Virus record (IMG/VR): IMGVR_UViG_3300022758_000225
Coordinates: 1-22,421 of that record
DNA length: 22,421 nt
Source of the DNA: a virus
Taxonomy: Duplodnaviria; Heunggongvirae; Uroviricota; Caudoviricetes
Reading direction: 5' to 3' (one strand)
Shown here: positions 1-22,421 of the stretch, in pieces
Layout of the letters: each line of letters starts with the position of its first letter
Numbering within the stretch: the stretch's first letter is position 1
Position numbers and translations under genes: made by a program
The notes under the pieces: generated by a model
Seen by the model: only the letters and a program-made list of their open reading frames with translations
The model's database searches: none
Told to the model about the DNA's origin: nothing

Positions 1-73
1 TGATTATTTGCCACCCATGCCCCCCAACGTTCAAGAACCATTTGAATATCACGCATCAACTGTCTCCACAAAA

Positions 74-487
74 TCAGGCCAGCACGCCAGTTGCCAGCGC
101 ACGATCGATAAAACGAAATATCAGCTCCAGCTGGGAGCCATACTTCTCTTCAAATGCCACGATATCCGCATGCAGCTCGTCGTGATGCTTTCTGCACAGA
201 GGCAACACAAAGAGGTCATGCGCTTTTGTACCCATTCCACCCTGACCGTGGCCTATCAGGTGGTGGGGATCATCAGCAGGCTTTCCACAACATGCACACG
301 GCTGCGTCTTAACCCAGCGCGTGTACTTTTCGTTAACCCAGCGGCGACGTTTTGGGCGTAACATAAAAGACTCCGGCGACTCCGGATCCACTTTCAGCGC
401 CAGCACCTTTTTCGCTTTATTCTGGATGATGCTGGTGGCCGGAACCGAAGGAACAAGGTCACTCTCCCGGGGTGACAGACGGCACAA
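74..487 (-). CDS. HNH-like Cys/His-motif protein (DUF968-like); probably the C-terminal part of a split ydfU-like nin-region gene
   Basis: 137-aa ORF with CACCG...HH...LPLCRKHHDELH motif typical of HNH/DUF968 proteins. Track start is TTG at 487. Overlaps upstream ORF 459..1070 by 29 nt in a different frame. Confidence 0.5.
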   Translation of the reverse strand: MCRLSPRESDLVPSVPATSIIQNKAKKVLALKVDPESPESFMLRPKRRRWVNEKYTRWVKTQPCACCGKPADDPHHLIGHGQGGMGTKAHDLFVLPLCRKHHDELHADIVAFEEKYGSQLELIFRFIDRALATGVLA

Positions 488-1070
488 CAGGCTTCGGTAA
501 TCTCAGTGCCTTACGGGCTGCACTTTCAGGTAAGGCATCCGCCAGATCATTACGAACCAGCCACCAGCACAGTTCCGGCATTGTCACAACGTGACTATCA
601 TCAAAACCGAGATCCCGACGCACGACGGACAACACCCAGCGGGCACAGTTATCCGTTGCCATTGATTCCAGCCGTTCCGTGAACTGATCGCGCAGCTGGT
701 TATCGCAGTGCCAGCACAGACGGATTGCGCCCGGCGCGTGACGCATTGTGGTCATGTTCTCGCTGTGCCAGTCGGAATGAGGCCACTGGCAGCCTTTTTC
801 ACGAAGTAACCAGCTTTCAAGACATTCCACGCCACCAGCACGACGGATCACTGCCTCATTGCGGAACACGGCCCGAACGGCAGGATCATCCGCCAGCGGT
901 TGTGATGCCGCCGGAACAGCACCACTGGCGAAAGATGAATAACTTTCCGGCTCAGGCTCCAGCAGGACACGCCCCTGCATAAACAGAGGCATCAGCTCTG
1001 AACCAGGCCTGAACAATACGATCCCCATACGCGGGGCAATTTCAGGGGTCAGTAGTGCTCTCACGGTCAC
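459..1070 (-). CDS. nin-region protein, probable N-terminal part of the same ydfU-like gene
   Basis: 203-aa ORF with GTG start at 1070, directly after the KilA-N gene stop (1072-1074). Family assignment is from recall only. Confidence 0.4.
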   Translation of the reverse strand: MTVRALLTPEIAPRMGIVLFRPGSELMPLFMQGRVLLEPEPESYSSFASGAVPAASQPLADDPAVRAVFRNEAVIRRAGGVECLESWLLREKGCQWPHSDWHSENMTTMRHAPGAIRLCWHCDNQLRDQFTERLESMATDNCARWVLSVVRRDLGFDDSHVVTMPELCWWLVRNDLADALPESAARKALRLPKPVVPSVTPGE

Positions 1071-1071
1071 C

Positions 1072-1881
1072 TCAATGAACGGTATCGAGCAGCTTTAACA
1101 GCTCAGGGAATCGGGATTCGAAGAAATGCGGCTGCGTCTCGCGCGGATTTGCGGGACTAGTGATGTTCTTGCCGAACATGCAGCCTTTCGCGGTCAGCGA
1201 CCAGAATTTTTTGATGTTGTTAATCGCGGTACGGCTGTATCGTTCGCGTTGTTCAACGATCCCCAGCTTCACCATCTGGTGATATGCCTGATTAGCCGTC
1301 AGGCGGATACCATACTGTTTCAGCAGTGCACTCAGTGACAGTGTCGGGCGACTTGAGCCATCGTGTGCATCAGCAGGAGCATCAATGGCATAGCGCGGTG
1401 CCAGATTCGGTAAGCCAACAGCCTCCTGGAGTTTCTGACAGGCACCAAGCACAGATGAGTTAGACAGGTTTAACTCCCGACGCATAAAGTCCAGCAGAAT
1501 CACACCAGCCTGCATCTTGTCAGCAGCCTGTCCGGATAATTTTTCCGGTGCGCTGGTTACCATGTCGAAAGTACGGATCACCTTCAGATGGAATGACGGG
1601 CTGATCCACATTGCATAGGCATACACCAGTTCCTTGCAGACATAAGTTCCCCGTTCATTTCCCCCATGAATCACACTCACCGGGTCAACACCCAAATTCT
1701 GGGTGTTGGTCAATTCATGAACAAGTTCAACAGTTTGTTGGCTGGAAAGAAACTTTCCTGGCTCCTTGGTTCTGGCATTTGCACCAGATGCTACTGCTGC
1801 GCGATGCAGATCGTTCAGGCTGTAACGCCCATAAGCATCACGACGAACTTCAATACCATCAATGACCATCAGATTATTCAT
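1072..1881 (-). CDS. KilA-N domain protein / phage antirepressor-like
   Basis: N-terminus MNNLMVIDGIEVRRDAYGRYSLNDLHRAA is KilA-N-like. ATG at 1881 is preceded by AGGAGA; the track ORF extends to 1914. Confidence 0.7.
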   Translation of the reverse strand: MNNLMVIDGIEVRRDAYGRYSLNDLHRAAVASGANARTKEPGKFLSSQQTVELVHELTNTQNLGVDPVSVIHGGNERGTYVCKELVYAYAMWISPSFHLKVIRTFDMVTSAPEKLSGQAADKMQAGVILLDFMRRELNLSNSSVLGACQKLQEAVGLPNLAPRYAIDAPADAHDGSSRPTLSLSALLKQYGIRLTANQAYHQMVKLGIVEQRERYSRTAINNIKKFWSLTAKGCMFGKNITSPANPRETQPHFFESRFPELLKLLDTVH

Positions 1882-1900
1882 ACTTCGTTTCTCCTCTTGA

Positions 1901-2290
1901 TCAGGCGGCTGCACCCGCCGTTTTCTCGTACTTACTGATGGTGATCTCGACCTTCCCTTTCGGGATAACCGGTCCCCACTCCACCAGCATTCTTTTCACC
2001 TGTCTGTCGTCTTCCCACACACCCGCGTGGGTCAACGCGTCAAACAGCGCCTTGTTATAGTTGTCCAGATCGCGGATCCGGTTATCCGGAGGAAACAACA
2101 CGATCTCCACTGAAGCAGGTGCCGACGTTGGTTTTGGCAGACGACGTAACTGCTCAACTATTGCTGCGCACGCCGCGCTCTGAAATTTTCGCCCCGCCGC
2201 GCTTATCAGGCTCTTACCAGCAAATGCCCCTTTGTTGGGGTGTCGCCAGTACGTGTTCACGCTGGGCGGGAAAGGCAGGATCAGCTTCAT
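1901..2290 (-). CDS. rusA: Holliday-junction resolvase RusA
   Basis: 129 aa with PPSVNTYWRH, DLDNYNKALFDAL and GVWEDDRQV motifs matching E. coli RusA. Start overlaps the upstream stop as ATGA. Confidence 0.85.
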   Translation of the reverse strand: MKLILPFPPSVNTYWRHPNKGAFAGKSLISAAGRKFQSAACAAIVEQLRRLPKPTSAPASVEIVLFPPDNRIRDLDNYNKALFDALTHAGVWEDDRQVKRMLVEWGPVIPKGKVEITISKYEKTAGAAA

Positions 2291-2613
2291 ACTTTCAGGC
2301 CTCTCTCATGTAACCAGTGGGTTGCACGCAGCCTGGCGTTTTCCTCACCGGCAAGCAGTGAGCGGATAATCCCGACCGCCTCGCTGTCGTCGTCCTTCAC
2401 CGCGGTATGAAGAGTGATACCCCGGGCCACGCCACGCTTTATCGTGATGACGCCTTTTTTCTCCAGTGCGCGAAGATGTTCCACCGCTGCATTCACTGAA
2501 CGGTATCCCAGCATGGTTGCCACCTCCTGATTGGTTGGCGGGAAGCCACGTTCTTTCTGGTAAGAAATCAGCATATCCAGCACCTGCTGCTGGCATTGAG
2601 TTAACGTCGTCAT
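2287..2613 (-). CDS. LexA N-terminal DNA-binding-domain protein lacking the S24 peptidase domain
   Basis: 108 aa; QQQVLDML...GFPPTNQEVATMLGYRSVNAAVEHLRALEKKGVI aligns by eye with the LexA winged-HTH domain. No Ala-Gly cleavage site or Ser/Lys dyad. ATGA overlaps at both ends. Confidence 0.7.
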   Translation of the reverse strand: MTTLTQCQQQVLDMLISYQKERGFPPTNQEVATMLGYRSVNAAVEHLRALEKKGVITIKRGVARGITLHTAVKDDDSEAVGIIRSLLAGEENARLRATHWLHERGLKV

Positions 2614-3263
2614 GCCGCCATCTCCCTGACCAGTTTTTCCGCCTGCTGGCGAACCTGCGCCAGAAACGCCTCACCACATGCCTCAAGTTCATCGCGCCCG
2701 ATGTAGCTGATTGCCGGTCCCTTCCAGGTCTTGTCGAAAACAGCAATAGCACCAGCGAAGAAAGCGCCTGTCGGCACCTGCTTCTCGTCCTTCGGTATAA
2801 ACCAGGCAGGCAGTTCAAAACCAATACGCCCGCGAATAAAAGCAATATGATCTGCATCTTCCGGCCACCACACTTCGCTGGTGGCCGCTTTGATCAGGAA
2901 AACATAGCGCCCGCCCTTATCACGCATGGCACTGGCATGTTTCATGATGTAACGCATGCCGGTGATGTATTGCCCCTCATGCTGACTGGCGCGGCTGTAT
3001 GGGGGATTACCAAAGGCAGCACCTTTAAGCTCCGCAAGACGTTCTGACCAGTCATGCGCCAGCGCGTTATCTTCCGCCGTGTAATACGCGGCACATTTGG
3101 CGTTATCACCGTCAGTAAACAGATCCAGAACAAACGGGCCAAACAGAGTGTTAATTCCCCAGAAAATGTTGTCCGGCGTGCGCCACTGATCGCCCACTTC
3201 CTTCAGTTCATGGGCTGGTTTGTTCCGCAGTTCCACCAGTGCCTGACAATATTTATTACTCAT
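2610..3263 (-). CDS. phage N6-adenine DNA methyltransferase (Dam-like orphan methylase)
   Basis: Contains the NPPY motif (FGNPPYS) and a DLFTDGDN region typical of phage N6-adenine methyltransferases. Preferred start is ATG at 3263, overlapping the upstream stop as TAATG; the track gives a GTG at 3296. Confidence 0.8.
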   Translation of the reverse strand: MSNKYCQALVELRNKPAHELKEVGDQWRTPDNIFWGINTLFGPFVLDLFTDGDNAKCAAYYTAEDNALAHDWSERLAELKGAAFGNPPYSRASQHEGQYITGMRYIMKHASAMRDKGGRYVFLIKAATSEVWWPEDADHIAFIRGRIGFELPAWFIPKDEKQVPTGAFFAGAIAVFDKTWKGPAISYIGRDELEACGEAFLAQVRQQAEKLVREMAA

Positions 3264-3745
3264 TAAGCCCCCACGTAATTCCCTGACAGATACCACTCTT
3301 CACCCGATGCTGCGCGCTTGCTGCTTTTCTGTAAGCACTGCTCACGACGCGCCAGAAAATTGTTTCGTTCTGGCTGGGAGTGGCTTTCACGGAATGCCGC
3401 CATCCACACCGTTGCAGCACGACGGTATAAGCCCCTGGACTCCAGTTCTTCAGCCTGGCGAATCACCCGGGGATCGTTAGTGCCGACATAGAAATTGCGC
3501 ACAGGTCTGGTTTCACGAACTGGTTGTGGTTCCGGCTCCTGCGCTCTCTCAGTCAGGCGCGGGAAATGTCTGCGTGTATCTCCTTCACAACGGTGAGCCA
3601 CACGCCCACTCTGACGTAACTTGCTTGCTGACTGCAGAACGCGCTGTCGTGAGTAACCTGCAAAAGCATCCGCAATGTCTCCGAAAGTACACCCCGGATG
3701 GGCTTCAATGAATTTCTGAACTTCATTCAAAAGACTCATGATCAC
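3263..3745 (-). CDS. putative DNA-binding regulator with PerC-like C-terminal region
   Basis: 160-aa ORF in an operon of overlapping genes. The segment RVIRQAEELESRGLYRRAATVWMAAF resembles PerC-family proteins, from recall only. Confidence 0.4.
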   Translation of the reverse strand: MIMSLLNEVQKFIEAHPGCTFGDIADAFAGYSRQRVLQSASKLRQSGRVAHRCEGDTRRHFPRLTERAQEPEPQPVRETRPVRNFYVGTNDPRVIRQAEELESRGLYRRAATVWMAAFRESHSQPERNNFLARREQCLQKSSKRAASGEEWYLSGNYVGA

Positions 3746-4332
3746 CCCCTGAATCCTACCGGGATCTGGCTGTAGTCCACGTTGTCGTAACTGGCTTTGA
3801 AGTACGGGTCTTCACGTTTTTCTGTGTGCGTGCTGACGGACGGCGATAAGCGCAGGGAAAGCTCATCCCATTTTTCCCTCAACTTCGACGGGCTGAGCAC
3901 GTTACGGTACCAGAACGGATCGCGGCTGACGCGGCTGTACATCTCGCAGATTTGTTTGTGAGTACGACCATCCTGCACACACATCAGGCGAATTTCGTTT
4001 GCCCATGCTGTCCAGTTCGGTTCTTTGGGACGAACCACCTCGCCGTCACATTCGGCGGCCTGCTCGTACAGGGCGATGATTTTTTTCCAGAGCCACTGTG
4101 CGCAGGTCAAATCATCCTGCGTTCCCCACTGGCGCTTTTTAGGGCTGAATACAACCGCATCAGGATGGCGAGTTAAAAACTCCTGTTCAGCCGTTTGCGT
4201 GTCCGGTTGCGAAGCGTCCGGACGAGAAGAGGTTTTATTCTCTGTAGTAATCTCTGTTGTATTCTCTGTAAGATCATTGGGCCATTTTGACCCGATGACA
4301 GCGTGTCGTTTTGAACCAATGGATCGTGTCAT
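3742..4332 (-). CDS. replication protein, C-terminal part (O-like linker plus C-terminal domain)
   Basis: 196 aa. N-terminus is low-complexity (TENTTEITTENKTSS) and is encoded by the iteron region. ATG overlaps the stop of the replisome-organizer ORF as ATGA. Function inferred from position and iteron linkage. Confidence 0.5.
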   Translation of the reverse strand: MTRSIGSKRHAVIGSKWPNDLTENTTEITTENKTSSRPDASQPDTQTAEQEFLTRHPDAVVFSPKKRQWGTQDDLTCAQWLWKKIIALYEQAAECDGEVVRPKEPNWTAWANEIRLMCVQDGRTHKQICEMYSRVSRDPFWYRNVLSPSKLREKWDELSLRLSPSVSTHTEKREDPYFKASYDNVDYSQIPVGFRG

Positions 4333-4408
4333 TTGCGCCCATCCATCAGGTCACTTTGACCCGATGGAGAAGTGCATTTTGACCTGATGGATTCGTTCAC
4401 TTTGACCT
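4285..4408. repeat. origin-of-replication iterons (about 5 direct copies of TTTGAC(C/A)YGATGG plus one inverted copy)
   Basis: Direct copies at 4285-4298, 4309-4322, 4355-4367, 4377-4390 and a partial copy at 4400-4408. An inverted copy (ccatcaggtca) lies at 4343-4353. Spacing is 22-24 bp. They sit inside the replication gene, as ori-lambda does inside O. Confidence 0.6.
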
Positions 4409-4733
4409 CTTCTAAAAGCTCACTTTCATAGTTGATCGTGTAGAAGTTGGTCATGTCACGCTTCGATTTATTGAGTTGCTCGCGACGCAAAACCCCAAGT
4501 GATTTCAGGCTTGCAAATGTGCGTTTCAGAGTGGACTCTGACCAGAACGGAAACTGCTCCAGCCACTGTTCTGTCGTGTTATAAACCCAGCGAATTCCGC
4601 CATGCTCAGTGCCTGAATTCGTTTCATTCAGCCAGTAATGAAGCTGCTGCAACACAATTGCCTCATTCAGACCAATACGGCATGCAAGATCACGATTTAT
4701 CACAATGGGCTGGGATGTCATTAACAGGCTCAT
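4329..4733 (-). CDS. phage replisome organizer, N-terminal iteron-binding domain (lambda O-like)
   Basis: 134 aa; the N-terminus [39 protein letters not shown] resembles replisome-organizer N-terminal domains. Its 3' end is encoded by the iterons. Confidence 0.6.
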   Translation of the reverse strand: MSLLMTSQPIVINRDLACRIGLNEAIVLQQLHYWLNETNSGTEHGGIRWVYNTTEQWLEQFPFWSESTLKRTFASLKSLGVLRREQLNKSKRDMTNFYTINYESELLEEVKVNESIRSKCTSPSGQSDLMDGRK

Positions 4734-4902
4734 GACCGACCTCTATTTCCCTGAATTTACGACGAAACTGTTCGAGCGGACTGAAGCATTCATGTTCATA
4801 GCCTTCACGGAGGTAGATAACCCGTTGTGTTTCCGGCTCCCAACGAATGACTCTGACGGGCACTCCGTAGTGATCTTTGAACCAGCGGTTAACTTGTCGC
4901 AA
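4690..4902 (-). CDS. small phage protein (DUF4222-like)
   Basis: 70-aa ORF with TTG start at 4902 preceded by a strong SD (AAGGAGA at 4906-4913 on the minus strand). Motif [12 protein letters not shown]. Its 3' end overlaps the replication gene start by 44 nt. Confidence 0.45.
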
Positions 4903-5081
4903 AGGACTGTCTCCTTCTGCCGGTTGAAATCACCCACAGCCCACTCTGCAAAGCTGTGGGTTACAATTTCCCTGTCACCTGGTACATTCACTGCATAGCA
5001 ATACTCCACCTTCGCTTTTCCACCCGGTACAGGAAGCGCAATCAGTTGCGAGCGACGGTAGTGTGTTGTTAAACTGTTCAT
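4743..5081 (-). CDS. hypothetical protein (gene model uncertain)
   Basis: ATG at 5081 with GGAG about 10 nt upstream. The 3' two-thirds overlaps the DUF4222-like gene in another frame and looks low-complexity, so the true product is probably shorter. Confidence 0.2.
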
Positions 5082-5147
5082 GCGTTAGTTTCTCCACAAC
5101 CAGAAGCAATCGACGCCACGACGCCCGGAGCTGCACACTCGCGGGCG

Positions 5148-5636
5148 TCACTCTTTTCTGGAGCGCAAAAGATTTTGTAGACCAGTGCTGCATGCTCCTG
5201 GAGCTTCGCAAATTGACAGATACAACTCATCATTAATTGCTGTCTGCTCGTGTGGCTCCACTACCCCATCTTCGATTGCCGAACGAATCTGCTTTGAGTA
5301 ACTCCCGATCTGTTCGATGACTTCCAGCAGGCGCTGGTTTATATCGGCGTTCTCTACTTCCTCAATTTCAGGAAGCGATACAAACACCCCACCAGCAGAC
5401 TGTGCGACAGCATCCGCAATGTAGTGAGTGCCAGCCGCGCGCTGTAAAATCATTGCCCATCCCAGCGGGAAAATCTGATCGCCATCTGCACGAAGGCGGT
5501 TGAATAAAGCGTTCTCTGTTACATCCAGCCACTCAGCAGCTTCAGCGTAACCCCCCGGCAACGCCGCGATAGTTTTTCTGACAGCTTTCACGTACCACTC
5601 AGGCTGTTTTTCCACTTTCCAGTGATGATTACCCAC
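5148..5636 (-). CDS. CII-like regulatory protein (CP76 / YdaT-like family)
   Basis: 162 aa with GTG start preceded by AGGAGG. Lies immediately downstream of the cro-like gene, opposite the repressor. Family assignment is from recall only. Confidence 0.5.
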   Translation of the reverse strand: MGNHHWKVEKQPEWYVKAVRKTIAALPGGYAEAAEWLDVTENALFNRLRADGDQIFPLGWAMILQRAAGTHYIADAVAQSAGGVFVSLPEIEEVENADINQRLLEVIEQIGSYSKQIRSAIEDGVVEPHEQTAINDELYLSICEAPGACSTGLQNLLRSRKE

Positions 5637-5732
5637 GGCTTACCTCCTGTTCCTGTGGTTTAAAACCCATTCTGGTTTTGGCTAGATTGAAAACGTGCCG
5701 GATAAAGAATCTGCATTTCGCTGATTTCACCC

Positions 5733-5921
5733 TTAAAAAAATTGGCCAGACGTTCTGCAAGATCGATAGATGGAATTTGTTCCAGTCTTTTCAATACGAC
5801 TCAGCGTCGCTGGATTGACCTGAACGCCAGCAGCAACATGCTGCAAAGTAAATCCGTGCGCCTTACGCACATTTCCGTAATGGTGATTGCATATTACCTC
5901 CACATATTGCGTGATGAGCAT
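5733..5921 (-). CDS. Cro-like HTH (XRE-family) regulator
   Basis: HTH signature LQHVAAGVQVNPATLSRIEKTG. Divergent from the repressor gene. Internal ATG at 5921 chosen because the track's TTG at 6017 would overlap the cI start; no obvious SD, so possibly leaderless. Confidence 0.45.
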   Translation of the reverse strand: MLITQYVEVICNHHYGNVRKAHGFTLQHVAAGVQVNPATLSRIEKTGTNSIYRSCRTSGQFF

Positions 5922-5970
5922 ATTATTTTCACGCAAATATTTTGCGCAAGTTGATTTGCTTAACGCGCAA
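5907..5970. promoter_or_regulatory. OR-like operator cluster and divergent promoters between the cro-like and cI-like genes
   Basis: Three 15-bp palindromic sites centred about 24 bp apart: TTGCgtgatgaGCAt (5907-5921), cGCAAatattTTGCg (5932-5946), TTGCttaacgcGCAA (5956-5970). TTGATT at 5951-5956 and TAATAA at 5982-5987 are candidate promoter hexamers. Confidence 0.5.
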
Positions 5971-5990
5971 TAAAGAAATGTAATAAACGC

Positions 5991-6684
5991 ATGAACATAG
6001 GAAACCGAGTCAGACAACTTCGCCAGGCGAAGAACATGAAAATCGCCGATCTCGCTGAAGCAATAGGAGTGGATGCGGCGAATATCTCACGCCTGGAAAC
6101 AGGTAAGCAGAAACAATTCACTGAACAAGCCCTGAGTAATATTGCCAGGAGCTTAGGTGTTGATATTGCTGATCTCTTTACCTCAGACGTCAAAAGTAAT
6201 ACTGTATGTAAAAACAGTATTAGTGAGGATGTTGCGCAGGTGAAGGATGTATTCCGTATTGAAATGCTGGATGTCAGTGCCAGTGCGGGAAATGGCCTTA
6301 TCCAGGGCGGTGATGTCATTGATGTGATTCATGCCATTGAATACAGAACTGATAATGCTGTATCGATGTTTTGGCGGACGGCCAGCCAATCACATTAAAG
6401 TTATCAACGTTCGTGGGGACAGTATGTGTCCAACCATTGAGCCAGGAGATCTCATCTTCGTTGATGTCAGTATCAATCAGTTTGATGGAGATGGTATCTA
6501 TGTATTTGGTTTTGATGATAAAATTTATGTCAAGCGACTGCAAATGATACCTGACAAACTACTGGTGATTTCTGATAACCAGATTTACCGTGAATGGGGA
6601 ATTACCAGCGAAAATGAACACCGGTTTATGGTCTTTGGAAAGGTCTTAATCAGCCAGTCACAAACCCTTAAGCGACACAATTAA
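5991..6684 (+). pseudogene. cI-like prophage repressor (XRE HTH plus S24 LexA-like peptidase domain) interrupted by a frameshift
   Basis: ORF 5991..6398 carries the HTH (IADLAEAIGVDAANISRLETGKQ) and an Ala-Gly site (SASAGNG). ORF 6331..6684 in the +1 frame carries the S24 motifs GDSMCPTIEPGD and KRL. Removing one T from the T4 run at 6369-6372 joins them as ...NAVSMFGGRPANHIKV.... Confidence 0.7.
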
Positions 6685-6704
6685 CCCTTACCTCCTCATC
6701 AATT

Positions 6705-6726
6705 AGCCACCCAAAGGTGGCTTTTC
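6705..6726 (+). terminator. intrinsic terminator downstream of the cI-like gene
   Basis: Stem agccacc / ggtggct with loop caaa, followed by TTTT, about 20 nt after the cI stop at 6682-6684. Confidence 0.5.
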
Positions 6727-6739
6727 ATTACCCTTTAAA

Positions 6740-6792
6740 TTGCATATCTCGCAACAAAAACACTTGCATAATGCGCAACTTCATTTTATCTT
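6740..6792 (+). promoter_or_regulatory. OL-like operators with candidate PL promoter
   Basis: Two TTGC-N7-GCAA sites (6740-6754 and 6764-6778), 24 bp centre to centre, the same motif as the OR sites. TTGCAT at 6764-6769, a 17-bp spacer and TATCTT at 6787-6792 form a candidate rightward promoter. Confidence 0.4.
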
Positions 6793-7222
6793 TCTTTCCA
6801 GACAAACAAACAAGGTACTAACAAAATTTGGTTGTAACACGGCGTATGGCACATGCGTCGTTAGCGGTCTGGGGACGTTAAAGGGGACAATCCACTCCTT
6901 GCTCGGGCAAACAAACCAGGTAGCCGGAATGTGCAAGTCAATGATGATGCTGATAAGACGCCTAACCAGCGTGGCGGTTCGGTTTGACACCTGGGAAGAG
7001 ACCAGGGTGCAACGATGAGGGCATTTATGGAACCGCGACAAAGTGTGGTGCCGTAACTGGCTAAGTGCTCTCAGCGTTGTGGTGAATGCGCAGGCTGATG
7101 CGCGAAAGACATTGCAGCTATTGCGGAAAAGAGCTGTTCGGCGGGGCAATTAAACGCCCGTGAGAGTCTGAAATAACCGCAAGCCGGAGATCAGCACCGG
7201 TCACCACAACAGCCACTGCTTT

Positions 7223-7270
7223 AGCGGTACCAGTTTGTACACTTGCTTCCGGCTGGTACCGCTCTTTTTT
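7223..7270 (+). terminator. intrinsic terminator in the early-left leader (tL-like)
   Basis: Perfect 11-bp stem agcggtaccag (7223-7233) / ctggtaccgct (7253-7263) with a 19-nt loop, followed by T6 at 7265-7270. Confidence 0.5.
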
Positions 7271-7835: not shown

Positions 7836-8659
7836 ATGTCTCAGAACTTAGACGCAACCGCAATTAATCAAATCCATGCCCTTATTTCTGCTCAGGGTGT
7901 TAATGAAATTATCAGTAAGATTGGTGCCGATGCTGTGGCATTGCCTGAGAATTTCCGCATTCATGATCTGGAAAAATTTAATTTAAATCGCTTCCGTTTC
8001 CGTGGTGCGCTTTCCACTGCCAGCATCGATGACTTTACCCGTTATTCTAAAGATCTTGCAGATGAAGGCACCCGCTGCTTTATCGATGCCGATAATATGC
8101 GAGCCATCAGTGTGCTTAACCTGGGTACTATTGATGAACCAGGTCACGCAGATAACACCGCCACTCTCAACTGAAAAAGACAGCACCGTTCTCTGCCCTG
8201 CTGTCTGTTAATGGCGAGCGTAACTCCCAGAAGTCACTGGCAGAATGGATTGAAGACTGGGCCGACTATCTTGTGGGCTTTGATGCTAATGGTGACGCTA
8301 TTAAGGCAACAAAAGCGGCTGCGGCAGTCCGTAAAATCACGATTGAAGCAAACCAGACCGCTGATTTTGAAGATAATGACTTCAGCGGCAAACGCTCTTT
8401 GATGGAGTCTGTCGAAGCGAAAACCAAAGACATTATGCCAGTAGCATTTGAGTTTAAATGCGTTCCGTTTGAAGGCCTGAAAGAACGTCCGTTTAAATTA
8501 CGCCTCAGCATTATCACTGGTGATCGTCCTGTACTGGTTCTGCGCATTATTCAGCTGGAAGCGGTGCAGGAAGAAATGGCTAACGAATTTCGTGATCTGC
8601 TTGTTGAGAAATTCAAAGACAGCAAAGTAGAAACCTTTATTGGTACTTTCACCGCCTGA
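7836..8659 (+). pseudogene. DUF2303-like (yfdQ-like) gene split by a frameshift
   Basis: N-part 7836..8174 (frame 0) stops at 8172-8174. The C-part frame is open from 8156 and continues to 8659 (track ORF begins at GTG 8273). The two frames overlap in 8156-8172; joined length is about 274 aa. Confidence 0.5.
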
Positions 8660-13256: not shown

Positions 13257-13536
13257 AGACTCTCAAGCGGAACACTAAAAATCTCATTATATCTCATTCT
13301 GATGCCCCGCATGGATTACACCTTGAAATGAAAACACCGGGTTCCCAATAGGCTCCCACAAAGTGTATAACTACTTGTTTTTCAAAAACGGTACATCCTA
13401 TCGAGCATAGGAGCAATGCTAAACCGAGAACTCCAGTAAGCGCCAGTTTTTTCAGGCATCACGCTGGTTTGATTAGTTTTCTGTATTTCAGGATTATCGT
13501 GCATTTTTGAACATTTCAGGCTATTTTTCTCGCGTT

Positions 13537-13592: not shown

Positions 13593-14690
13593 ATGGCGTA
13601 CTATAACATAGAGAAACGACTAAAATCCGATGGCACACCACGCTATCGCTGTAATGTGATTATCAAAGAAAAAGGTGTTATCACTTACAGGGAAAGCAAA
13701 ACATTCCCTAAACATGCTCATGCCAAAACATGGGGCGCACAGAAAGTGATGGAATTAGATCTATATGGCATTCCATCATCAAATGCTGTTGATGGACTTA
13801 CAGTCCGTGACTTACTACACAAATATTTAAATGACCCAAATGCCGGAGGTAAAGCAGGCCGTACTAAAAGATATGTGCTGGAACTGCTTATGGATAGTGA
13901 CATATCCGCGATCAAACTATCTGAACTGACAGAAAATGACGTAATTGAACATTGCAGGCTAAGAAACAACGCTGGTGCAGGCCCAGCAACAGTCAGCCAC
14001 GATGTTAGTTATCTTGGCAGTGTTCTGGATGCGGCAAAACCTGTATACGGAATCAATTACACATCAAACCCGGCGAAAAGCGCTCGTCCATATCTACTTA
14101 AACTCGGTTTGATTGGTAAATCAAACCGTCGTAATCGTAGACCAGCATCTGATGAACTGGACATGCTCATTGAAGGCCTTCAACAACGATCTACTCATAA
14201 ATGCTCAAAAATTCCGTTCGTTGATATCCTCAAATTTTCTGTGTGGTCCTGTATGCGAATCGGAGAAGTATGCCGGTTACGATGGGAAGATCTCGACCAA
14301 GAACAAAAATCTATACTAGTAAGAGATAGGAAAGATCCACGTAAAAAGGAAGGTAACCATATGAAAGTTGCCTTGCTTGGGGAAGCCTGGGATATCGTCC
14401 AGCGCCAACCCAAAAAATCAGAATTCATTTTTCCATATAACAGCACTTCTGTTACCGCAGGATTTCAGAGGGTAAGAAGCAAATTAGGTATTAAAGATCT
14501 GCGATACCATGATTTGCGTAGAGAAGGGGCAAGTCGCTTATTTGAGGCTGGTTTTAGTATTGAGGAAGTCGCTCAAGTTACAGGGCATCGTTCATTAAAC
14601 GTGCTATGGCAGGTATATACCGAACTGTATCCGAAATCTTTACATAATCGTTTTGAAGAACTCCAAAAGAGCAGAAACAAGACCTCTTGA
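13593..14690 (+). CDS. int: tyrosine site-specific integrase
   Basis: 365 aa with C-terminal catalytic signature YHDLRREGASRLFEAGFSIEEVAQVTGHRSLNVLWQVYTEL (HxxR and Tyr nucleophile). RBS GAGG. Confidence 0.9.
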   Translation: MAYYNIEKRLKSDGTPRYRCNVIIKEKGVITYRESKTFPKHAHAKTWGAQKVMELDLYGIPSSNAVDGLTVRDLLHKYLNDPNAGGKAGRTKRYVLELLMDSDISAIKLSELTENDVIEHCRLRNNAGAGPATVSHDVSYLGSVLDAAKPVYGINYTSNPAKSARPYLLKLGLIGKSNRRNRRPASDELDMLIEGLQQRSTHKCSKIPFVDILKFSVWSCMRIGEVCRLRWEDLDQEQKSILVRDRKDPRKKEGNHMKVALLGEAWDIVQRQPKKSEFIFPYNSTSVTAGFQRVRSKLGIKDLRYHDLRREGASRLFEAGFSIEEVAQVTGHRSLNVLWQVYTELYPKSLHNRFEELQKSRNKTS

Positions 14691-14692
14691 CA

Positions 14693-15112: not shown

Positions 15113-15253
15113 CGCTTACATTGTGTCTGGTTCTTCCGGCCACTCAATATCAGGTGCAGTTGATGTATCAACACGGTTCAGCAACACCCTGCATGCCTTC
15201 CATGCCGCCAGCAATGATGTTTCCTCCTTCGTTGCATATACTGCTCACCTTTT

Positions 15254-15547: not shown

Positions 15548-15556
15548 CTGCTATCC

Positions 15557-15835
15557 TTAAAACCACTCCCTGAGCGGGCGCTCTGGTGTAACCACCCACT
15601 CACGGAACACGGAATCATCAAATCCATCGTCAAGAAGACGGATATTAACAAAGTACCCTTCGTTTCGCGTGTATTCTGGTTCTCCGTCATCAGGAACATC
15701 TGTCTCCCTGAACGTAAAACCAATCTCATCAACCAGAACGGCATTCTGCAGCTCTTCGTCCTCTTCCCAGTTAAGTTTCCTGAGAAATGCCCTGAAATCT
15801 GCTTTATCACTGAAACGCAACGTGAAATCTCTCAC
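15557..15835 (-). CDS. hypothetical acidic protein downstream of the tail fibre gene
   Basis: 92 aa. Start overlaps the stf stop as ATGA. No resemblance to lambda Tfa. Confidence 0.45.
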   Translation of the reverse strand: MRDFTLRFSDKADFRAFLRKLNWEEDEELQNAVLVDEIGFTFRETDVPDDGEPEYTRNEGYFVNIRLLDDGFDDSVFREWVVTPERPLREWF

Positions 15836-17895
15836 TCCACAACCTCCCCAAGCTGCGCATCTGTTAGCTCTTTATGCCAGAGACGAAAATTCCTCACATG
15901 CCCAAATAAATGGCGTAATCCTGCTGTAGTTTGTCCACCAATGCGAATGGTTGCTGTACTCCGGATATATTCCCATGTGGTTTTTGTTTCGCTGGATATA
16001 CGCCCGTTACTTACTGCACATGTAGACTGATCTGACTTTACACGCATCCCCATAACCATTTTTTTCAACGATGCGTTTTCGTTAACACGCCTATTTGATC
16101 CACCAATATCGCAATAAGGAAATCCGTCTGGCCCATCTGCCGAAGATCCGAAGCCAAGAATAATAGCCGCTCCGGTTTGATGACCGCCGGTATCAAAAAC
16201 ACGTGGCGCTGCATTTGGCGTTTTATACCAGTTCTTATGTACCTCACAAAGAACCGTAAAAGGAAGATTATAAAGATTATTATTAATTGGAACTGTAACT
16301 ATATCGCTTGCGCGGGTAGCCGCCGTCGTTCCTGAGATAATAAAAGATGATGCACACGAACCATCCTCAACCTGAGGGGTGGCCAGATAAATATAGTCTC
16401 CAGATACGGTTGCTCCGCCCTGATTAGGAGAATACTGTATCTGAGATCCTATTTTTAACTCATCATCAATTGCCAGGATTGTTGCCTCTGCAAAAATCCA
16501 TCCGGTAGCTTCGTCCTTTCTGACTCTCGCTGTAATCCTTGAGGCCGCGCCACCTGTCATATTAATTTCAAGCGTTTGTGTATCAATATATGCATCACCA
16601 AGAAAAGTTGTTGCACTACCGTCATATTTATCAAAGCGGATACGCAACCTTACCTGTCGTTCTGTTTTAAAACGACATGAGGTTGTCACGTACTTGTTAT
16701 CGCCTGAAACATCAACTGACTTTGTAGCAGCAATTGATGCCATATTAATGGCTGACGTTTGCCCAATCAGAGAATCGTTACAAACAAACTTTCCATAAGT
16801 AAAACCAAAACTATCAGTTCCAACCTCAGCGACATTCATATTTGCAGATTTACCCCAAGAAGCTGGAGTTGCTGAATTCAACATGTAGTTGGTTCGCTGA
16901 CCTTCAATCAATAAACCTTCTTTTTCAAATCGTGGCTCATTAATTTCCGCCGTTTTCAGTTCGCCAGATTTGTTGATATATGTTGCCGTTGATGCGCGAC
17001 TGAAATTAACCTGTTTATCACTGGCAACCTGAACCACATTATCACCAATCTTCACTTTTTTATAACCCGGAGAATAGCCCGTAATCATATCCAGCGAATC
17101 ATTAAAGGGTATCCACACATCCGGCAGCGGCTGTAAAACATATCTGTACGGCTCTGCTGTCTGGTTTGCGTATTCTCTGGCAGCATCTTCACTTGCTTTT
17201 GCTGCCGTCTGGCTTGCTGCCGATGCTTTCGCCGAGTTCGCCGCCGCTGTTTCGCTCACCTTTGCGTTGGCTTCACTGTCTTTGGCATTCGTCTCACTGG
17301 TTTTCGCTGCCGTCTGGCTGGATTTTGCGTTTTTTTCGCTGGCCTTTGTGGCTGTCTCGCTATTTTTCGCGCTGGTTTCTGATTTTTTGGCTGCTGTCGC
17401 GGAGTTTGCCGATGCAGTCTGCGAGGCCGCTGCCGCCTGTGCGCTGTTAGCTGCATTCGTTTCTGAGGTTTTCGCCGCATTCTTCGATGAGGCTGCTGCC
17501 GTTTCGGATTTCTTTGCCGCCGCTGCACTCTGTGATGACGCTCCGGCATGACGTGCCACTTCATTCACCATCAGCTCAAAACGGCGCAGTGCCTCCGGAC
17601 GGGCATCATCCTCCGTCATGGCACCGAGAAAATCATTCAGCGTACCTGGTCTGGAACCTTCATAGACGGTAATGGTCCCGGCATGTGAAGGTGGAAAACC
17701 TTCAACCAGCAGGGTGACGCTGTACTGGCCATACTCAACATCCATGCTGTAACGCCCGGCTTCATCCGGATTTTCTGAGGCCACCGTGTTCACCACCACC
17801 GTGGTGCTGTTACGTTTTGCTTTCAGCTGGATTGTGCAGTTCTGTACCGGTTTACCTGCACCGTCTTTCAGTACACCTGAAATCTTTACTGCCAT
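15832..17895 (-). CDS. stf: side tail fibre protein (lambda Stf-like N-terminus, A/S/T-rich repeat stalk, lectin-like C-terminal domain)
   Basis: N-terminus MAVKISGVLKDGAGKPVQNCTIQLKA...GFPPSHAGTITVYE matches lambda Stf. C-terminus GHVRNFRLWHKELTDAQLGEV resembles the end of concanavalin-A/LamG-type domains. ATG at 17895 with a GGGGTGA SD. Confidence 0.8.
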   Translation of the reverse strand: MAVKISGVLKDGAGKPVQNCTIQLKAKRNSTTVVVNTVASENPDEAGRYSMDVEYGQYSVTLLVEGFPPSHAGTITVYEGSRPGTLNDFLGAMTEDDARPEALRRFELMVNEVARHAGASSQSAAAAKKSETAAASSKNAAKTSETNAANSAQAAAASQTASANSATAAKKSETSAKNSETATKASEKNAKSSQTAAKTSETNAKDSEANAKVSETAAANSAKASAASQTAAKASEDAAREYANQTAEPYRYVLQPLPDVWIPFNDSLDMITGYSPGYKKVKIGDNVVQVASDKQVNFSRASTATYINKSGELKTAEINEPRFEKEGLLIEGQRTNYMLNSATPASWGKSANMNVAEVGTDSFGFTYGKFVCNDSLIGQTSAINMASIAATKSVDVSGDNKYVTTSCRFKTERQVRLRIRFDKYDGSATTFLGDAYIDTQTLEINMTGGAASRITARVRKDEATGWIFAEATILAIDDELKIGSQIQYSPNQGGATVSGDYIYLATPQVEDGSCASSFIISGTTAATRASDIVTVPINNNLYNLPFTVLCEVHKNWYKTPNAAPRVFDTGGHQTGAAIILGFGSSADGPDGFPYCDIGGSNRRVNENASLKKMVMGMRVKSDQSTCAVSNGRISSETKTTWEYIRSTATIRIGGQTTAGLRHLFGHVRNFRLWHKELTDAQLGEVVE
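17180..17560. repeat. imperfect tandem repeats encoding the Ala/Ser/Thr/Lys-rich stalk of Stf
   Basis: Repeated gctgccg / ttcgc / ttttcgc units on the plus strand, translating to KxSETxAxNS-type repeats. They generate spurious ORFs on both strands. Confidence 0.5.
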
Positions 17896-17906
17896 ATTCA
17901 CCCCAC

Positions 17907-17932
17907 AAAAAAGCCCGCCTGAACCGGCGGGC
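17907..17932 (-). terminator. intrinsic terminator downstream of lom
   Basis: Minus strand reads GCCCGCC-ggttca-GGCGGGC followed by TTTTTT, ending just upstream of the stf SD. Confidence 0.5.
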
Positions 17933-17959
17933 TGTCATAACACTGTGTTACCTGGCTAA

Positions 17960-18559
17960 TCAGAACTTATAACCGACACCCACGATGAACCCGTCAGTGC
18001 GCCAGTTGCCACTGCCGGAGCCTTCATAAGCGACATCAACGGCCACGGATTCGGTCGGGTTAAACTGCACGCCAGCTCCCCACGCCAGAGAGGTGTTACT
18101 GTGGCGAGCGTCATCACTTCCGGTCAGCACGTCGTGCGTTTTTCCCTTGTTGTCAGTTACGCGGAGATAATCCCCGGAAAAAGTCGACACACGGCTGTAA
18201 GCCACGCCTGCCATCGCATACGCGCTGAACCATTCATTCACGCGTACAGACGGCCCCGCCATCACGCTGAACCAGCGGTTACGCACGGAATCCTCATGCC
18301 AGCGGGTATCGCTGTAATGCGTTTTTTGCTCATCTTCAGCGTTGGCATAACTGAATGACGTAATCAGCCCCAGCGTGTCCGTAAACTCATAACGGTATTT
18401 CACGTTAATCCCGTTCAGATTATCGCTGCCGGGAGCGTTCGTACGGGCATGAAGATACCCTGCGCTCAGTGTGGCCTGCTGCTCAGACGCCCATGCAGGC
18501 GCACCGGATACGGCCAGACAGATGGCTGCGGACAAAATGGCTGCACAAACTTTACGCAT
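17960..18559 (-). CDS. lom: outer-membrane protein Lom (Ail/Lom family)
   Basis: 199 aa with signal peptide; GINVKYRYE and C-terminal AYEGSGSGNWRTDGFIVGVGYKF match lambda Lom. Confidence 0.85.
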   Translation of the reverse strand: MRKVCAAILSAAICLAVSGAPAWASEQQATLSAGYLHARTNAPGSDNLNGINVKYRYEFTDTLGLITSFSYANAEDEQKTHYSDTRWHEDSVRNRWFSVMAGPSVRVNEWFSAYAMAGVAYSRVSTFSGDYLRVTDNKGKTHDVLTGSDDARHSNTSLAWGAGVQFNPTESVAVDVAYEGSGSGNWRTDGFIVGVGYKF

Positions 18560-18583
18560 AATTACCTCTCGCTTTTCTGCAAT

Positions 18584-18607
18584 AAAAAAGGCGCCAGAAA
18601 TGGCGCC
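18584..18607 (-). terminator. intrinsic terminator between J and lom
   Basis: Minus strand reads GGCGCC-atttct-GGCGCC followed by TTTTTT. Consistent with lom being a separately expressed moron. Confidence 0.5.
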
Positions 18608-18627
18608 CGCATATGGGTTATGAAAAT

Positions 18628-21600
18628 TCAGCTAATCGTGATACCTGCTGTGGATTTCTTCATCACCACAACCAGCAAATCACTGATACTGGCTGTGGGA
18701 TACCAGTCATTTACCAGCCACGCTGATACCGAAAACTCCAGCGTCATGTGACCGCGACCAGCAGGCATATCAATAACACCTGTATAAACCAGCGTATTAT
18801 CCAGCGCGGTACGGTTATAAATTTCAGCACCGTTTTTCTTCACTATCAGGCGGCATGACGAATAAATATCGTTATTCTCCCGCTCATGTTTAGCGCCACG
18901 AAACGCCACCGCGGGAATAACAATCTGCCGGTTAAACGGCTGATCGTCATAAACCCTGACGGTAATGGTTCCTGATGGCCAACGCTTCGGTGCACGGGAG
19001 TCACGGGGGAAAGCCTTACCCACTGTTTTAACGAGATCGCCTTCAATCTGGTTTGCAGACAGTTTCCCTCTGATGACACAGTTCTCGTTAATGGTGACAT
19101 TATTGAGCGTGCCGGTATTCGCCGTGATGGCTCCACTGATATCCGCATTGCGGGCTGTCAGCCTGCCATCCGGCGTCAGGGAAAACGTCGGAGGATTGCC
19201 GGATGACGTGATGCTCACCGCAAACAGTCGCTTCAGGAACACGTCGTTCATGAACAGCTGATTCCCCTGCGCCACAAACAGCGGCGTGGTGTTGCCGTTC
19301 TCCGGGGTAATCATCGCAATGCGATCGGCCTGCAGCAGAATGTTACTCAGGGTCTGATCATCAACATCCTCAATCCCCGCGCCAATCCCGGCCACATAGG
19401 GAATACCGTTTTTGTTTCTGCACCTTCAGCATATACATGGCATTCAGCTCATTGCGCGTGTCTGACTGAACCCGCTGGATTTGCTGTATGGTCACGGCCT
19501 GGTCACCCAGCTTTTTATCCGTGGTCGAGGTAATTTCACTCCCTTTTTTATCCACGTACTGGCGGACCTGTGCTATCTGTCGGGCGTTTTCTGACTGCCC
19601 CTGGCTGACAGTCTGTGAGATTTCACTGCTCACCCGGTCCACTTTCTGGCTCACCTGCGCGATGGCCAGTGTCTGGTCCTCATTCTTTTTCGCAACCAGC
19701 TGCGTGAGGCTGTTTTCCGCCTTCCCGATTTTCCGGGTCACTTCTGCGATATCCGTGTCCATCCGCTGACGGATATCTTCTTCCAGTTGCGTGACCTCCG
19801 TACGCAGCGCTGAAGCATCAATGCGCTCTTTCAGTGCCTGACCCAGAAGCGTCTCATCTATCAGCCCCCCGGAAAATTTCCAGATACCCTTCACCATCAT
19901 TGCTGGGCTGCCCGCTGGCTTCCACAAAAGCAGATTTCCCCACCAGGTTGACGCTGCGCACGTAAAACCAGAAATCCGTCCCCGGCTTAATCCGGCTCCC
20001 CTGGACAGTCCACTGACTGCCGGTCCCCAGATAACGGGCAGATTTTCCACCTGTGCTGTGTTCGTGATGCGTTTTTCTGAGAACCAGAATTCAAACTGTA
20101 CCGTCGGGTCATACACCGCAAGACGCGGGACCGCCGTTATCTGAAAATACCCCGGCGTCAGCTCAATCCGAGACGGCGCTGCCGGTGCGGCAATCCGGAA
20201 CGATACCGATGCCGGATCGCCCTGCTGCCCCCACGCATTTACTGCCCGGACTGTCAGCGTGTACCGCCCCAGCGCCAGTTGCGTGAAGCGGTATGTGGTT
20301 TCCGTCGTCCGGGCCGTGCTGACCAGCCGCTCACTGCCGTCATCCGCTGCCACGGTCAGGCGAAGCATAAAGCTCACGCCCTTCACCACCTTCGGCGTGT
20401 CCCAGCGCGCCAGCACCTGATATTCCCCGCTGTCTGCGGTAACTTCGGCGGTCAGGTGCTGCACCGCTGGCGGCGTGACACCATTCACCGTGCCGCTCTG
20501 GTCGCCGTCAAAGTGCGCCCCGTTATCCACGATGGCCTCTTTTGCCGGTACATGCTGTACGGCGGTGATGGCATACGTACCGTCGTCATTCTCACGGATA
20601 CTCACACAGCGGAACAGGCGCTGGCGCAGCGTCGGCAGCTTCAGCCCCCACACGCTGTATCCGGCAACGCCGTCAGGAACACGGCTCACTTTCACCTTCA
20701 CACCGTCGGTGACGGACTGGACCTCCACGCTCACCGGATTACCCTGCCCGTCAACCAGGCTTATCAGCGTGGTGCCGGAGGATGGCAGCGTGATTTCACG
20801 GTCGAGCGTCAGCGTCCGGGTCTGGCTGTTTACCGCCAGCACGCGCCCGCCGGTGCTGATACCGGCATAGTCATCATCGCAGATTTCAATGACATCGCCC
20901 GGTACATGGCGAAGCCCTTCGGCACCCACGCTGAAGTCCACGGTCTGCGTTTCCAGCAGTTCCGTTTTAATCAGCCACAGCCCGGCGCGGTGCGCCTGCC
21001 CCCGGCTGGTACAGCCAAAGGCATCCATCTTCGTGACGTTACGACCGTAACGGGCAATGGCCTGCGTATCTTCAACAAGCTCTGTCGCCGTCTCCCAGCC
21101 GTTATCCGGGTCAATCCAGTTCACCTCAACGGCATTATGGCGGTCCTTCAGGGCGCTGAAGCTGTAGCGGAACGGCGCGCCATCATCCGGCATCACCACA
21201 TTACTGCGGTTATAGGTCCACACCTTATCCGACGGTCGGTCCTGCACGAACGTCAGCGTCTGCCCGTTCCATACCGGCATACAGCGCATCGCCGAGCAGA
21301 AATCGCTGAGAACATCCCACGCCTTACGCTGTGTGGTCAGCCAGGCATTACAGGTGATGCGCGGCTCCGTGCCGCCAAAGCCGTCCGGCACTGACTGGTC
21401 GCAGTACTGGCCGATGACATACAGCGCCCATTTATCCACATCCGCCGCACCAAGACGTTTCCCCATGCCGTAGCGCGGATGGGTCAGCATATCCCACAGA
21501 CACCAGGCCATGTTGTTGCTGTATGCTGGCTTAAACGTTCCGTCCCAGATACCGCTGTATTGCCGCGTCTGCGGGTTATAATTCGACGGCACCTGCAGAA

Positions 21601-22324
21601 TACGCCCGCGAAGATGATAATTACGGCTCACCTGCTGGCTGCCGAACTGTTCCGAGTCCACCTGTACGCCGACCAGTGCCGTGTTCGGGTAGCACTGTTT
21701 CACATCGATGATTTCAGTGTATGACGACCAGAGCGTTTTGTTCTGCAGCTGGTCTGTGGTGCTGTCCGGCGTCATCCTGCGCATCCGGATGTTGAACGGG
21801 CGCGGCGGCAGGTTACCCACCACCACCGAGGCCAGATACTGCGAGGTGGTTTTGCCCTTAATGGTGATGTCTTTTTCCGTCACCCAGCCACCGTTACGCT
21901 GTATCTGAACCAGCAGGCGGACTTCCGACGGATTCCGGTCCCCCTTTGAGGTGGTTTCCACCAGTGCCTGCACACCGAAGGTAAAGCGCAGACGGTCAAT
22001 GTTTGCCGACGTGATGGTCCGGGTGATCGGCGTGTCATATTTCACTTCCGTACCCAGCACCGTCTCGGAGCCGGAGGATTCAAATCCCTCCGGCGGAGTC
22101 TGCTCCTGCTCACCTGCCCGGAACACCACCGTTACGCCGGAGATGTTGGTATTCCCCTCACTGTCCAGCACCGGTGTACTGTTCAGCAGCACGCTTTTTA
22201 AGCCATCCACCGGACCTTCAACCGGCCCTTCACTGATGGCATCGATCACACTCAGCAACTGCGTGGACTTCAGATTGTCCTTCGCTTCGCGCGGGGTATG
22301 CCCCTTACTGCTGCCTTTACCCAT
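18628..22324 (-). pseudogene. J: tail tip / host-specificity protein J, interrupted by single-base frameshifts
   Basis: The first ~800 aa of ORF 19370..22324 are near-identical to lambda J. The segment encoded 20046->19870 is out of frame; the alternative frame gives KSARYLGT...YVRSVN...GKSAFVE...GEGYL, matching J. ORF 18628..19395 carries the J C-terminus. Breaks at T4 20043-20046, C6 19865-19870 and T5 19409-19413. Confidence 0.8.
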
Positions 22325-22384
22325 TCGTCATGCTCCATAAACGACAAAACCGCCCGGAGGCGGTTTCACATAAAATATTTTGCA

Positions 22385-22421
22385 TCATCGACCAATCATC
22401 ACAACCTGACCACCATCCCCA
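22385..22421 (-). CDS. 3' end of the upstream tail gene (I-like position), partial
   Basis: Open minus-strand frame running off the window edge, stopping at 22385-22387 about 60 nt upstream of the J start. Identity not verifiable from 12 codons. Confidence 0.25.
   Translation of the reverse strand, partial: GDGGQVVMIGR

What the first reader, a model, noticed from the sequence alone, without database searches (positions are those of the whole stretch)
1..22421. Unusual density of 1-nt indels at short homopolymers across unrelated genes
The frame breaks in cI (T4), J (T4, C6, T5) and, less certainly, ydfU (C/G run) and the replication gene all sit at short mononucleotide runs; the DUF2303 break lies in a short overlap without an obvious run. 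The breaks are scattered over the whole window rather than clustered. This is the signature either of homopolymer-biased sequencing or assembly error or of a decaying, defective element, and the two readings have very different biological meaning.
Basis: inference. Interest (0 to 1): 0.55.

Follow-up and report, generated by a model that had tools for sequence, protein, structure and literature searches.

The report
Sequencing-error frameshifts in a phage contig
The many broken genes in this E. coli phage contig are almost certainly base-calling or assembly errors at short runs of one base, not a decaying virus, because the contig otherwise matches intact prophages base for base.

Summary
The window is a whole 22,421-nt JGI/IMG contig. 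It holds an mEp460-like lambdoid phage in its excised (attP) form and is the dusA-integrated prophage of ST95 E. coli strains N56 and PMV-1.

Against those genomes it carries 14 single-base indels (9 insertions, 5 deletions). There are no unexplained substitutions. The only base changes are one attP-core base shared with phage mEp460 and a 1.5-kb patch identical to a second prophage of the same strains.

Twelve of the 14 indels sit in runs of at least 3 bases (P = 3e-8). They break seven genes: DUF968/YdfU, the O-like replication initiator, CII-like YmfL, a Cro-like gene (three hits), the CI-like repressor, YfdQ/DUF2303 and J (four hits). Reverting them restores every protein exactly.

No indel state was seen elsewhere: not in the listed best matches among 5,426 complete E. 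coli genomes, and not in 7–121 IMG/VR relatives per left-arm site.

An indel-only, singleton, homopolymer-biased, clustered pattern with no depletion in coding sequence points to consensus error, not decay. Ordinary artefact; low interest.

The parts
74..1064 (-). DUF968/YdfU-like (HNH) gene, split by a +1 insertion in the G run at 469-472 (reference G3, window G4)
   Evidence: Reverting the insertion gives a 329-aa protein identical to the N56 protein. Pfam DUF968, E = 6e-81.
3742..4733 (-). Replication initiation O-like gene (330 aa), split by a 1-nt deletion in the T run at 4332-4334 (reference T4, window T3)
   Evidence: PHROG 391 'replication initiation O-like', E = 5e-100. The exact 196-aa fragment occurs on only one contig among 15 billion proteins.
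5078..5636 (-). YmfL / CII-like activator gene, split by insertion of C at 5209 (the only indel not in a homopolymer)
   Evidence: Pfam Phage_CP76. All 68 IMG/VR relatives spanning the site have the reference length.
5629..5892 (-). Cro-like HTH gene with three +1 insertions: A3 to A4 at 5662-5665, T3 to T4 at 5788-5791, T2 to T3 at 5872-5874. The net change is +3, so the frame is restored downstream.
   Evidence: Pfam HTH_3.
5926..5929 (.). Insertion (T3 to T4) in the cro-cI intergenic (operator/promoter) region
   Evidence: 36 of 36 relatives have the reference length.
5991..6684 (+). CI-like HTH + S24 peptidase repressor gene, split by an insertion at 6369-6372 (T3 to T4)
   Evidence: Pfam Peptidase_S24 + HTH. 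The window state is absent from metagenome contigs.
7265..7270 (.). Insertion (T5 to T6) between cI and yfdP. The site is unannotated in N56/PMV-1. By coordinate mapping it lies where mEp460 annotates the small ORF gp36 (inferred, not aligned at ORF level).
   Evidence: 102 of 102 relatives have the reference length.
7836..8659 (+). YfdQ/DUF2303 gene, split by a deletion at 8169-8170 (A3 to A2)
   Evidence: Pfam DUF2303, E = 1e-91. The window state has 0 matches in IMG/VR and the reference state at least 120.
13395..13417 (.). attP core joining the prophage right arm (1-13402) to the left arm (13404-22421). It is identical to the attP of phage mEp460, including G at 13403.
13593..14690 (+). 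Intact dusA-type tyrosine integrase, 100% identical to the reference
17372..18913 (-). Mosaic patch covering the tail-fibre N-terminus, lom and the J C-terminus. It is 100% identical to a second lambdoid prophage of the same strains and accounts for all 86 substitutions and 4 indel events against the dusA prophage here.
18628..22324 (-). Tail-tip gene J with four 1-nt indels: T5 to T4 at 20043-20046, C5 to C6 at 19865-19870, T4 to T3 at 19415-19417, T6 to T5 at 19409-19413. Between 20043 and 19865, 59 codons are read in the wrong frame without meeting a stop. The ORF ends early at 19370.
   Evidence: Reverting the indels restores a 1232-aa ORF.

Best explanation
The frame breaks are errors in the consensus sequence of a low-quality contig. 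They are miscounts of short mononucleotide runs, of the kind made by flow-based (454/Ion Torrent) or under-polished long-read assemblies. They are concentrated in two stretches that probably had low coverage or poor quality. The underlying phage is an intact mEp460-like, dusA-integrating lambdoid phage of ST95 E. coli, captured in its excised (attP) form.

Shown here: the indels, their homopolymer context, their uniqueness, the lack of accompanying substitutions, and the exact restoration of all proteins on reversion.
Inferred: that they arose during sequencing or assembly, on which platform, and that low coverage explains the clustering.
For: 1. Indel-only divergence. Against N56/PMV-1 the window has 14 single-base indels. 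There are no substitutions other than the attP-core G at 13403, which phage mEp460 shares, and one patch that is 100% identical to a second prophage of the same strains.
   - In mutation-accumulation data for Vibrio, another gammaproteobacterium, indels are at most about 21% of events in wild type and in mutS mutants (PMC5854121). That gives P(at least 14 of 15) of about 5e-9.
   - Natural divergence of this same window from mEp460 is 472 substitutions to 13 other indel events.
2. Homopolymer bias. Twelve of 14 lie in runs of at least 3 bases (P = 3e-8). Eleven of 14 are A/T, matching the published 454 consensus-error profile (PMC3277595).
3. Singletons.
   - The 12 best-listed matches among the 1,033 complete-genome records covering the immunity region all span 1265 nt against the window's 1271. 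The 12 best-listed of the 715 covering the J segment all span 753 nt against 751.
   - All 7-121 IMG/VR relatives spanning each left-arm site have the reference length.
   - Exact scans for the window states find nothing, while the reference state at 8169 has at least 120 hits.
   - The truncated products exist on a single JGI/IMG contig of 22,421 nt.
4. Reverting the 14 indels restores six proteins to 100% identity with the references and restores a 1232-aa J.
5. No sign of selection and implausible multiplicity. Twelve of 14 hits are in CDS, in a window that is about 89% coding. There are three hits in an 86-codon cro-like gene and four in J.
6. Clustering is not explained by homopolymer density (P = 0.0003-0.004).
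7. The contig spans a bona fide attP, with intact integrase and excisionase-like genes.
Against: - No reads, quality values or platform information could be obtained. The source contig itself is not retrievable from the searchable collections.
- Homopolymer slippage is also a genuine mutational route. The per-run hit rate rises with run length (0.8% at length 3 to 6% at length 6), as real slippage would.
- One insertion (5209) is not in a run.
- Co-resident prophages in these strains do exchange segments naturally, so not every oddity of the contig has to be an artefact.
Confidence: 0.93

Rival explanations
1. The indels are real. The element is a decaying, defective phage or prophage that is accumulating frameshifts by replication slippage.
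For: The frame breaks hit seven genes, including the essential replication and tail-tip genes. Slippage at mononucleotide runs is a known mutational mechanism, and the hit rate rises with run length.
Against: - No unexplained substitutions accompany the 14 indels. P is about 5e-9 under measured indel fractions.
- No relative shares any of the states.
- The contig is in the excised attP form, with intact int and xis.
- The indels are tightly clustered.
- Runs of 7 bases are untouched while runs of 2-3 are hit.
Confidence: 0.03
2. The indels are real and were produced in a mismatch-repair-deficient (mutator) host or during error-prone phage replication, which inflates single-base homopolymer indels.
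For: Loss of MMR raises single-nucleotide homopolymer indels more than 300-fold in Vibrio (PMC5854121).
Against: In the same mutS lines, transitions still outnumber indels about 4-11 to 1 (1022:273 and 4313:382), whereas here no transition is seen. Mutator indels concentrate in the longest runs, and they give no reason for two tight clusters next to an 11-kb clean stretch.
Confidence: 0.02
3. Consensus errors caused by collapsing reads from paralogous prophages of the same genome (a chimeric assembly), rather than by base-calling as such.
For: - The contig contains a patch identical to a second resident prophage, and the patch's right junction is found in none of 5,426 complete genomes.
- At 5872 the window's TTTCC is the union of the N56 state TTCC and the mEp460 state TTTC.
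- The immunity region occurs at 3 places in PMV-1 and N56.
Against: The four J indels lie in 19321-20072, exactly the J segment that has no homologue in the second prophage. Most sites are invariant in every relative examined, so mixing paralogues would not create them. This is a variant of the artefact explanation, not a biological rival.
Confidence: 0.15
4. Recoding: programmed ribosomal frameshifts or tolerated truncations in a viable phage.
For: None specific. Lambdoid phages do use one programmed -1 frameshift, in the tail assembly chaperone G/GT, but that gene lies outside this window (general knowledge).
Against: The viable phage mEp460 and every other relative examined encode these genes as single uninterrupted ORFs at each alignable site. 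There are seven genes with both +1 and -1 shifts, and two indels outside annotated CDSs.
Confidence: 0.005

Closest known systems
Homopolymer-length errors in 454/Ion Torrent or unpolished long-read assemblies (e.g. Luo et al. 2012, PMC3277595)
   Same: Single-base insertions and deletions in short A/T-rich runs, no substitution errors, artificial frameshifts in otherwise conserved genes, and a frequency that depends on local coverage.
   Different: About 22% of the genes in the window are affected (7 of roughly 32). That is far more than the 2-3% of genes reported for 454 metagenome contigs, so coverage was very low or the data were draft long reads. The platform is unknown.
Enterobacteria phage mEp460 (NC_019716), a viable lambdoid phage
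   Same: Same gene order across attP: excisionase, two hypothetical genes, attP, int, dinI, tail fibre, lom, J. The attP core is identical. Identity is 96.6% over 69% of the window.
   Different: The replication/Rha module and the accessory genes differ. In mEp460 every shared gene that is broken in the window is intact.
dusA-integrated prophage of ST95 E. coli (PMV-1 NC_022370, N56 NZ_CM165908)
   Same: Base-for-base identical to the window apart from the 14 indels, the att core and one mosaic patch.
   Different: It is integrated (attL/attR) rather than in the attP form. Its lom and J C-terminus are of the other allele. All its genes within the window's span are intact.

Membership tests
Sequencing/assembly artefact (homopolymer miscalls) | Differences from near-identical references are indels, not substitutions | tested here: met
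   14 indels and 0 unexplained substitutions in 22.4 kb.
Sequencing/assembly artefact (homopolymer miscalls) | Indels lie in mononucleotide runs | tested here: met
   13 of 14 lie in runs of at least 2 bases and 12 of 14 in runs of at least 3 (P = 3e-8).
Sequencing/assembly artefact (homopolymer miscalls) | The states are unique to the one assembly and absent from independent sequences | tested here: met
   and 52 against 53.
Sequencing/assembly artefact (homopolymer miscalls) | Reverting the indels restores conserved full-length proteins | tested here: met
Sequencing/assembly artefact (homopolymer miscalls) | Reads or quality values show low support at the sites, and an error-prone platform was used | not testable with these tools
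   The source record and its reads could not be retrieved.
Decaying (pseudogenised) prophage | Inactivating mutations accompanied by neutral substitutions and larger deletions or IS insertions | tested here: not met
   There are no unexplained substitutions and no deletions or IS elements relative to the intact references.
Decaying (pseudogenised) prophage | The lesions are inherited and therefore shared by related genomes | tested here: not met
   No relative shares any lesion.
Decaying (pseudogenised) prophage | The element is fixed in the chromosome (attL/attR, or lost att sites) | tested here: not met
   The contig spans an intact attP junction.
Programmed ribosomal frameshifting / recoding | The frameshift site is conserved in homologues from viable relatives | tested here: not met
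   mEp460 and all other relatives examined have unbroken ORFs.
mEp460-like dusA-integrating lambdoid phage | Synteny and nucleotide identity with mEp460, the same attP core, and a dusA-type integrase | tested here: met
   The prophage copies are flanked by dusA.

The most novel reading that the evidence does not exclude
Some or all of the indels are real. The contig would then represent a phage genome that still excises, and is perhaps packaged, despite frameshifts in its repressor, cro, cII, replication and tail-tip genes. It could be a defective element mobilised by the co-resident second prophage, whose lom/J-end segment it carries.
Probability: 0.03. Interest if true: 0.4.

Novelty: not a real feature. 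Interest (0 to 1): 0.05.

Why it matters
It matters mainly as a data-quality warning. Seven genes on this contig would be miscalled as pseudogenes or split ORFs. The 984-aa 'J' ORF also hides 59 wrong-frame codons that no ORF caller would flag. Any inference of prophage decay, loss of immunity or altered host range from this contig would be spurious. The indel-to-substitution ratio against near-identical references is a simple test, needing no reads, that separates such artefacts from real decay.

Tried and rejected
- Retrieving the source contig, and so its sample and platform. The exact-protein contig look-up found nothing. Exact-pattern scans of IMG/VR and the metagenome contigs found nothing. 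The contig appears to be withheld from the searchable collections. Only one search shows that it is a single JGI/IMG contig of 22,421 nt.
- The genome-contig scan was uninformative. Neither the window state nor the reference state at 5209 was found, so those species-representative genomes lack the exact sequence at this site.
- E. coli mutation-accumulation paper. The PMC id I recalled for Lee et al. 2012 is not held, so I used the Vibrio data as the gammaproteobacterial benchmark.
- Clustering as a side effect of A/T-run density. Rejected: clustering remains significant when placement is weighted by run length.
- Strand asymmetry, with 9 T-run against 2 A-run events on the + strand. Not significant (P = 0.065).
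- The 86 substitutions and 4 indel events in 17372-18913 as divergence or errors. Rejected: they vanish against the second prophage of the same strains.
Full report
**What the window is**

The exact 984-aa J fragment and the exact 196-aa replication-protein fragment encoded here occur, among about 15 billion proteins, on a single JGI/IMG contig of 22,421 nt. The window is therefore that whole contig.

It is an E. coli lambdoid phage.
- Positions 1-13402 are collinear with the right arm of a dusA-integrated prophage of ST95 strains PMV-1 and N56, running from DUF968 to the excisionase-like PrtN gene, two small genes and attR.
- Positions 13404-22421 are collinear with that prophage's left arm: attL, int, dinI, tail fibre, lom, J.

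The two arms meet at a core sequence identical to the attP of the viable phage mEp460, which has the same gene order across the junction. The contig therefore represents the excised or vegetative form, not an integrated remnant.

**Checking the observation**

A base-by-base alignment with N56 and PMV-1, which are identical to each other over the left-arm alignment, shows 10 single-base indels in 1-13417. The only substitutions there lie in the att core.

In 13404-22420 all 86 substitutions and 4 of the 8 indel events fall in 17372-18913. That patch is 100% identical to a second lambdoid prophage of the same strains. Outside it, only four single-base indels remain, all in J.

The full list is:
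- +G at 469
- -T at 4332
- +C at 5209
- +A at 5662
- +T at 5788, 5872, 5926, 6369 and 7265
- -A at 8169
- -T at 19409-19413, at 19415-19417 and at 20043
- +C at 19865

Twelve of 14 lie in reference runs of at least 3 bases, where 17% is expected (P = 3e-8).

- Six lie within 1.2 kb of the immunity region.
- Four lie within 0.63 kb of J.
- An 11.2-kb stretch has none.
- This clustering survives weighting by homopolymer content (P = 0.0003-0.004).

**What it is**

Five observations separate error from decay.

1. The divergence is indel-only: 14 indels against no unexplained substitution.
   - In mutation-accumulation experiments on Vibrio, another gammaproteobacterium, indels make up at most about 21% of events, both in wild type and in mutS mutants (PMC5854121).
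   - That gives about 5e-9 for at least 14 of 15 events being indels.
   - The same window differs from mEp460 by 472 substitutions but only 13 other indel events.
2. Every indel state is a singleton.
   - In the immunity region the 12 best-listed complete-genome matches, out of 1,033 records covering the query, all span 1265 nt against the window's 1271. The best identity is only 99.5%.
   - In the J segment the 12 best-listed, out of 715, all span 753 nt against 751.
   - In 122 IMG/VR loci, all 7-121 relatives spanning each left-arm site have the reference length.
   - Exact scans for the window states return nothing, whereas the reference state at 8169 returns at least 120 contigs.
3. Reverting the 14 indels restores DUF968, the O-like protein, YmfL, Cro-like, CI-like and YfdQ to 100% identity with the reference proteins. 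It also restores a single 1232-aa J.
4. Coding sequence is not depleted of hits: 12 of 14 fall in CDS, in a window that is about 89% coding. Single genes are hit repeatedly, three times in an 86-codon gene and four times in J.
5. The contig carries a genuine attP with intact integrase and excisionase-like genes.

The A/T bias (11 of 14) and the dependence on run length match the published profile of 454 consensus errors, which fall about ten-fold between 2x and 20x coverage (PMC3277595). Local low coverage would explain the clustering, but that step is inferred.

**Rivals**

- Real decay and a mutator origin both fail on the missing substitutions, the singleton status and the clustering.
- Recoding fails because viable relatives have unbroken ORFs at every site.
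- A sub-variant of the artefact explanation is consensus corruption from collapsing paralogous prophages. It may contribute: the patch has a unique right junction, and TTTCC at 5872 is a union of two natural alleles. It cannot explain the J cluster, which lies exactly in the J segment with no paralogue in the second prophage.

**Comparison and novelty**

The phage is a new-to-database but ordinary relative of mEp460. It is essentially the dusA prophage of ST95 E. coli.

What could not be done: reads, coverage and platform could not be examined, because the source record is not retrievable. That is the one decisive test left.

**Verdict**

Sequencing or assembly error, with confidence about 0.93. 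Interest is low.

Noticed in passing
window 13395-13417: The contig spans a bona fide attP identical to that of phage mEp460. Base 13403 is G in the window and in mEp460, but A in both attL and attR of N56 and in the PMV-1 attR arm. Simple excision of an N56-type prophage would therefore not regenerate this attP. The source lineage differs at this core base, or integration heteroduplex repair changed it.
   Followed up: partly
window 17372-18913: The tail-fibre N-terminus, lom and the last ~90 codons of J are 100% identical to a second lambdoid prophage of the same strains (next to ompT in PMV-1), not to the dusA prophage. The right junction (18913/18933) occurs in none of 5,426 complete E. 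coli genomes (best match 96.4%). It is either a real inter-prophage recombinant or an assembly chimera.
   Followed up: partly
window 16250-17000; L003/L005 (N56) vs L008/L007 (PMV-1): The central tail-fibre cassette is swapped between the two co-resident prophages in N56 relative to PMV-1 (0 vs 137 differences, reciprocally). This is natural gene conversion or exchange between resident prophages of ST95 strains.
   Followed up: partly
window 19865-20043 (minus strand, inside ORF 19370-22324): A -1/+1 indel pair makes 59 J codons read in the wrong frame without meeting a stop. The 984-aa ORF therefore looks intact to an ORF caller but is not. Likewise, the three +1 insertions in the cro-like gene sum to +3.
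   Followed up: yes
window 19321-20072: All four J indels fall inside the only J segment that has no homologue in the second prophage's J (the alignment gap). This hints that the error rate tracked copy number or coverage during assembly.
   Followed up: no
window ~10028-10400 and ~15116-15235: Two gene remnants, a partial ead/Ea22-like gene and a partial tail-fibre-assembly gene, are annotated as incomplete in N56 and PMV-1 too. They are genuine, shared truncations unrelated to the homopolymer indels.
   Followed up: partly
L001 8197-9371 (PMV-1 prophage, just beyond window position 1): Downstream of Q, the PMV-1 copy of this prophage carries an ADP-ribosyltransferase gene (scabin-related) and a subtilase-family AB5 toxin binding-subunit gene. 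This is a toxin cargo that the window does not reach.
   Followed up: no
L010 (IMGVR_UViG_2565956711_000003): Another IMG/VR contig, numbered in the style that I take (from memory of IMG numbering) to mean an isolate genome, ends at the same attP junction. It is a 97-99% relative. Free attP forms of this phage group seem to recur in assemblies.
   Followed up: partly
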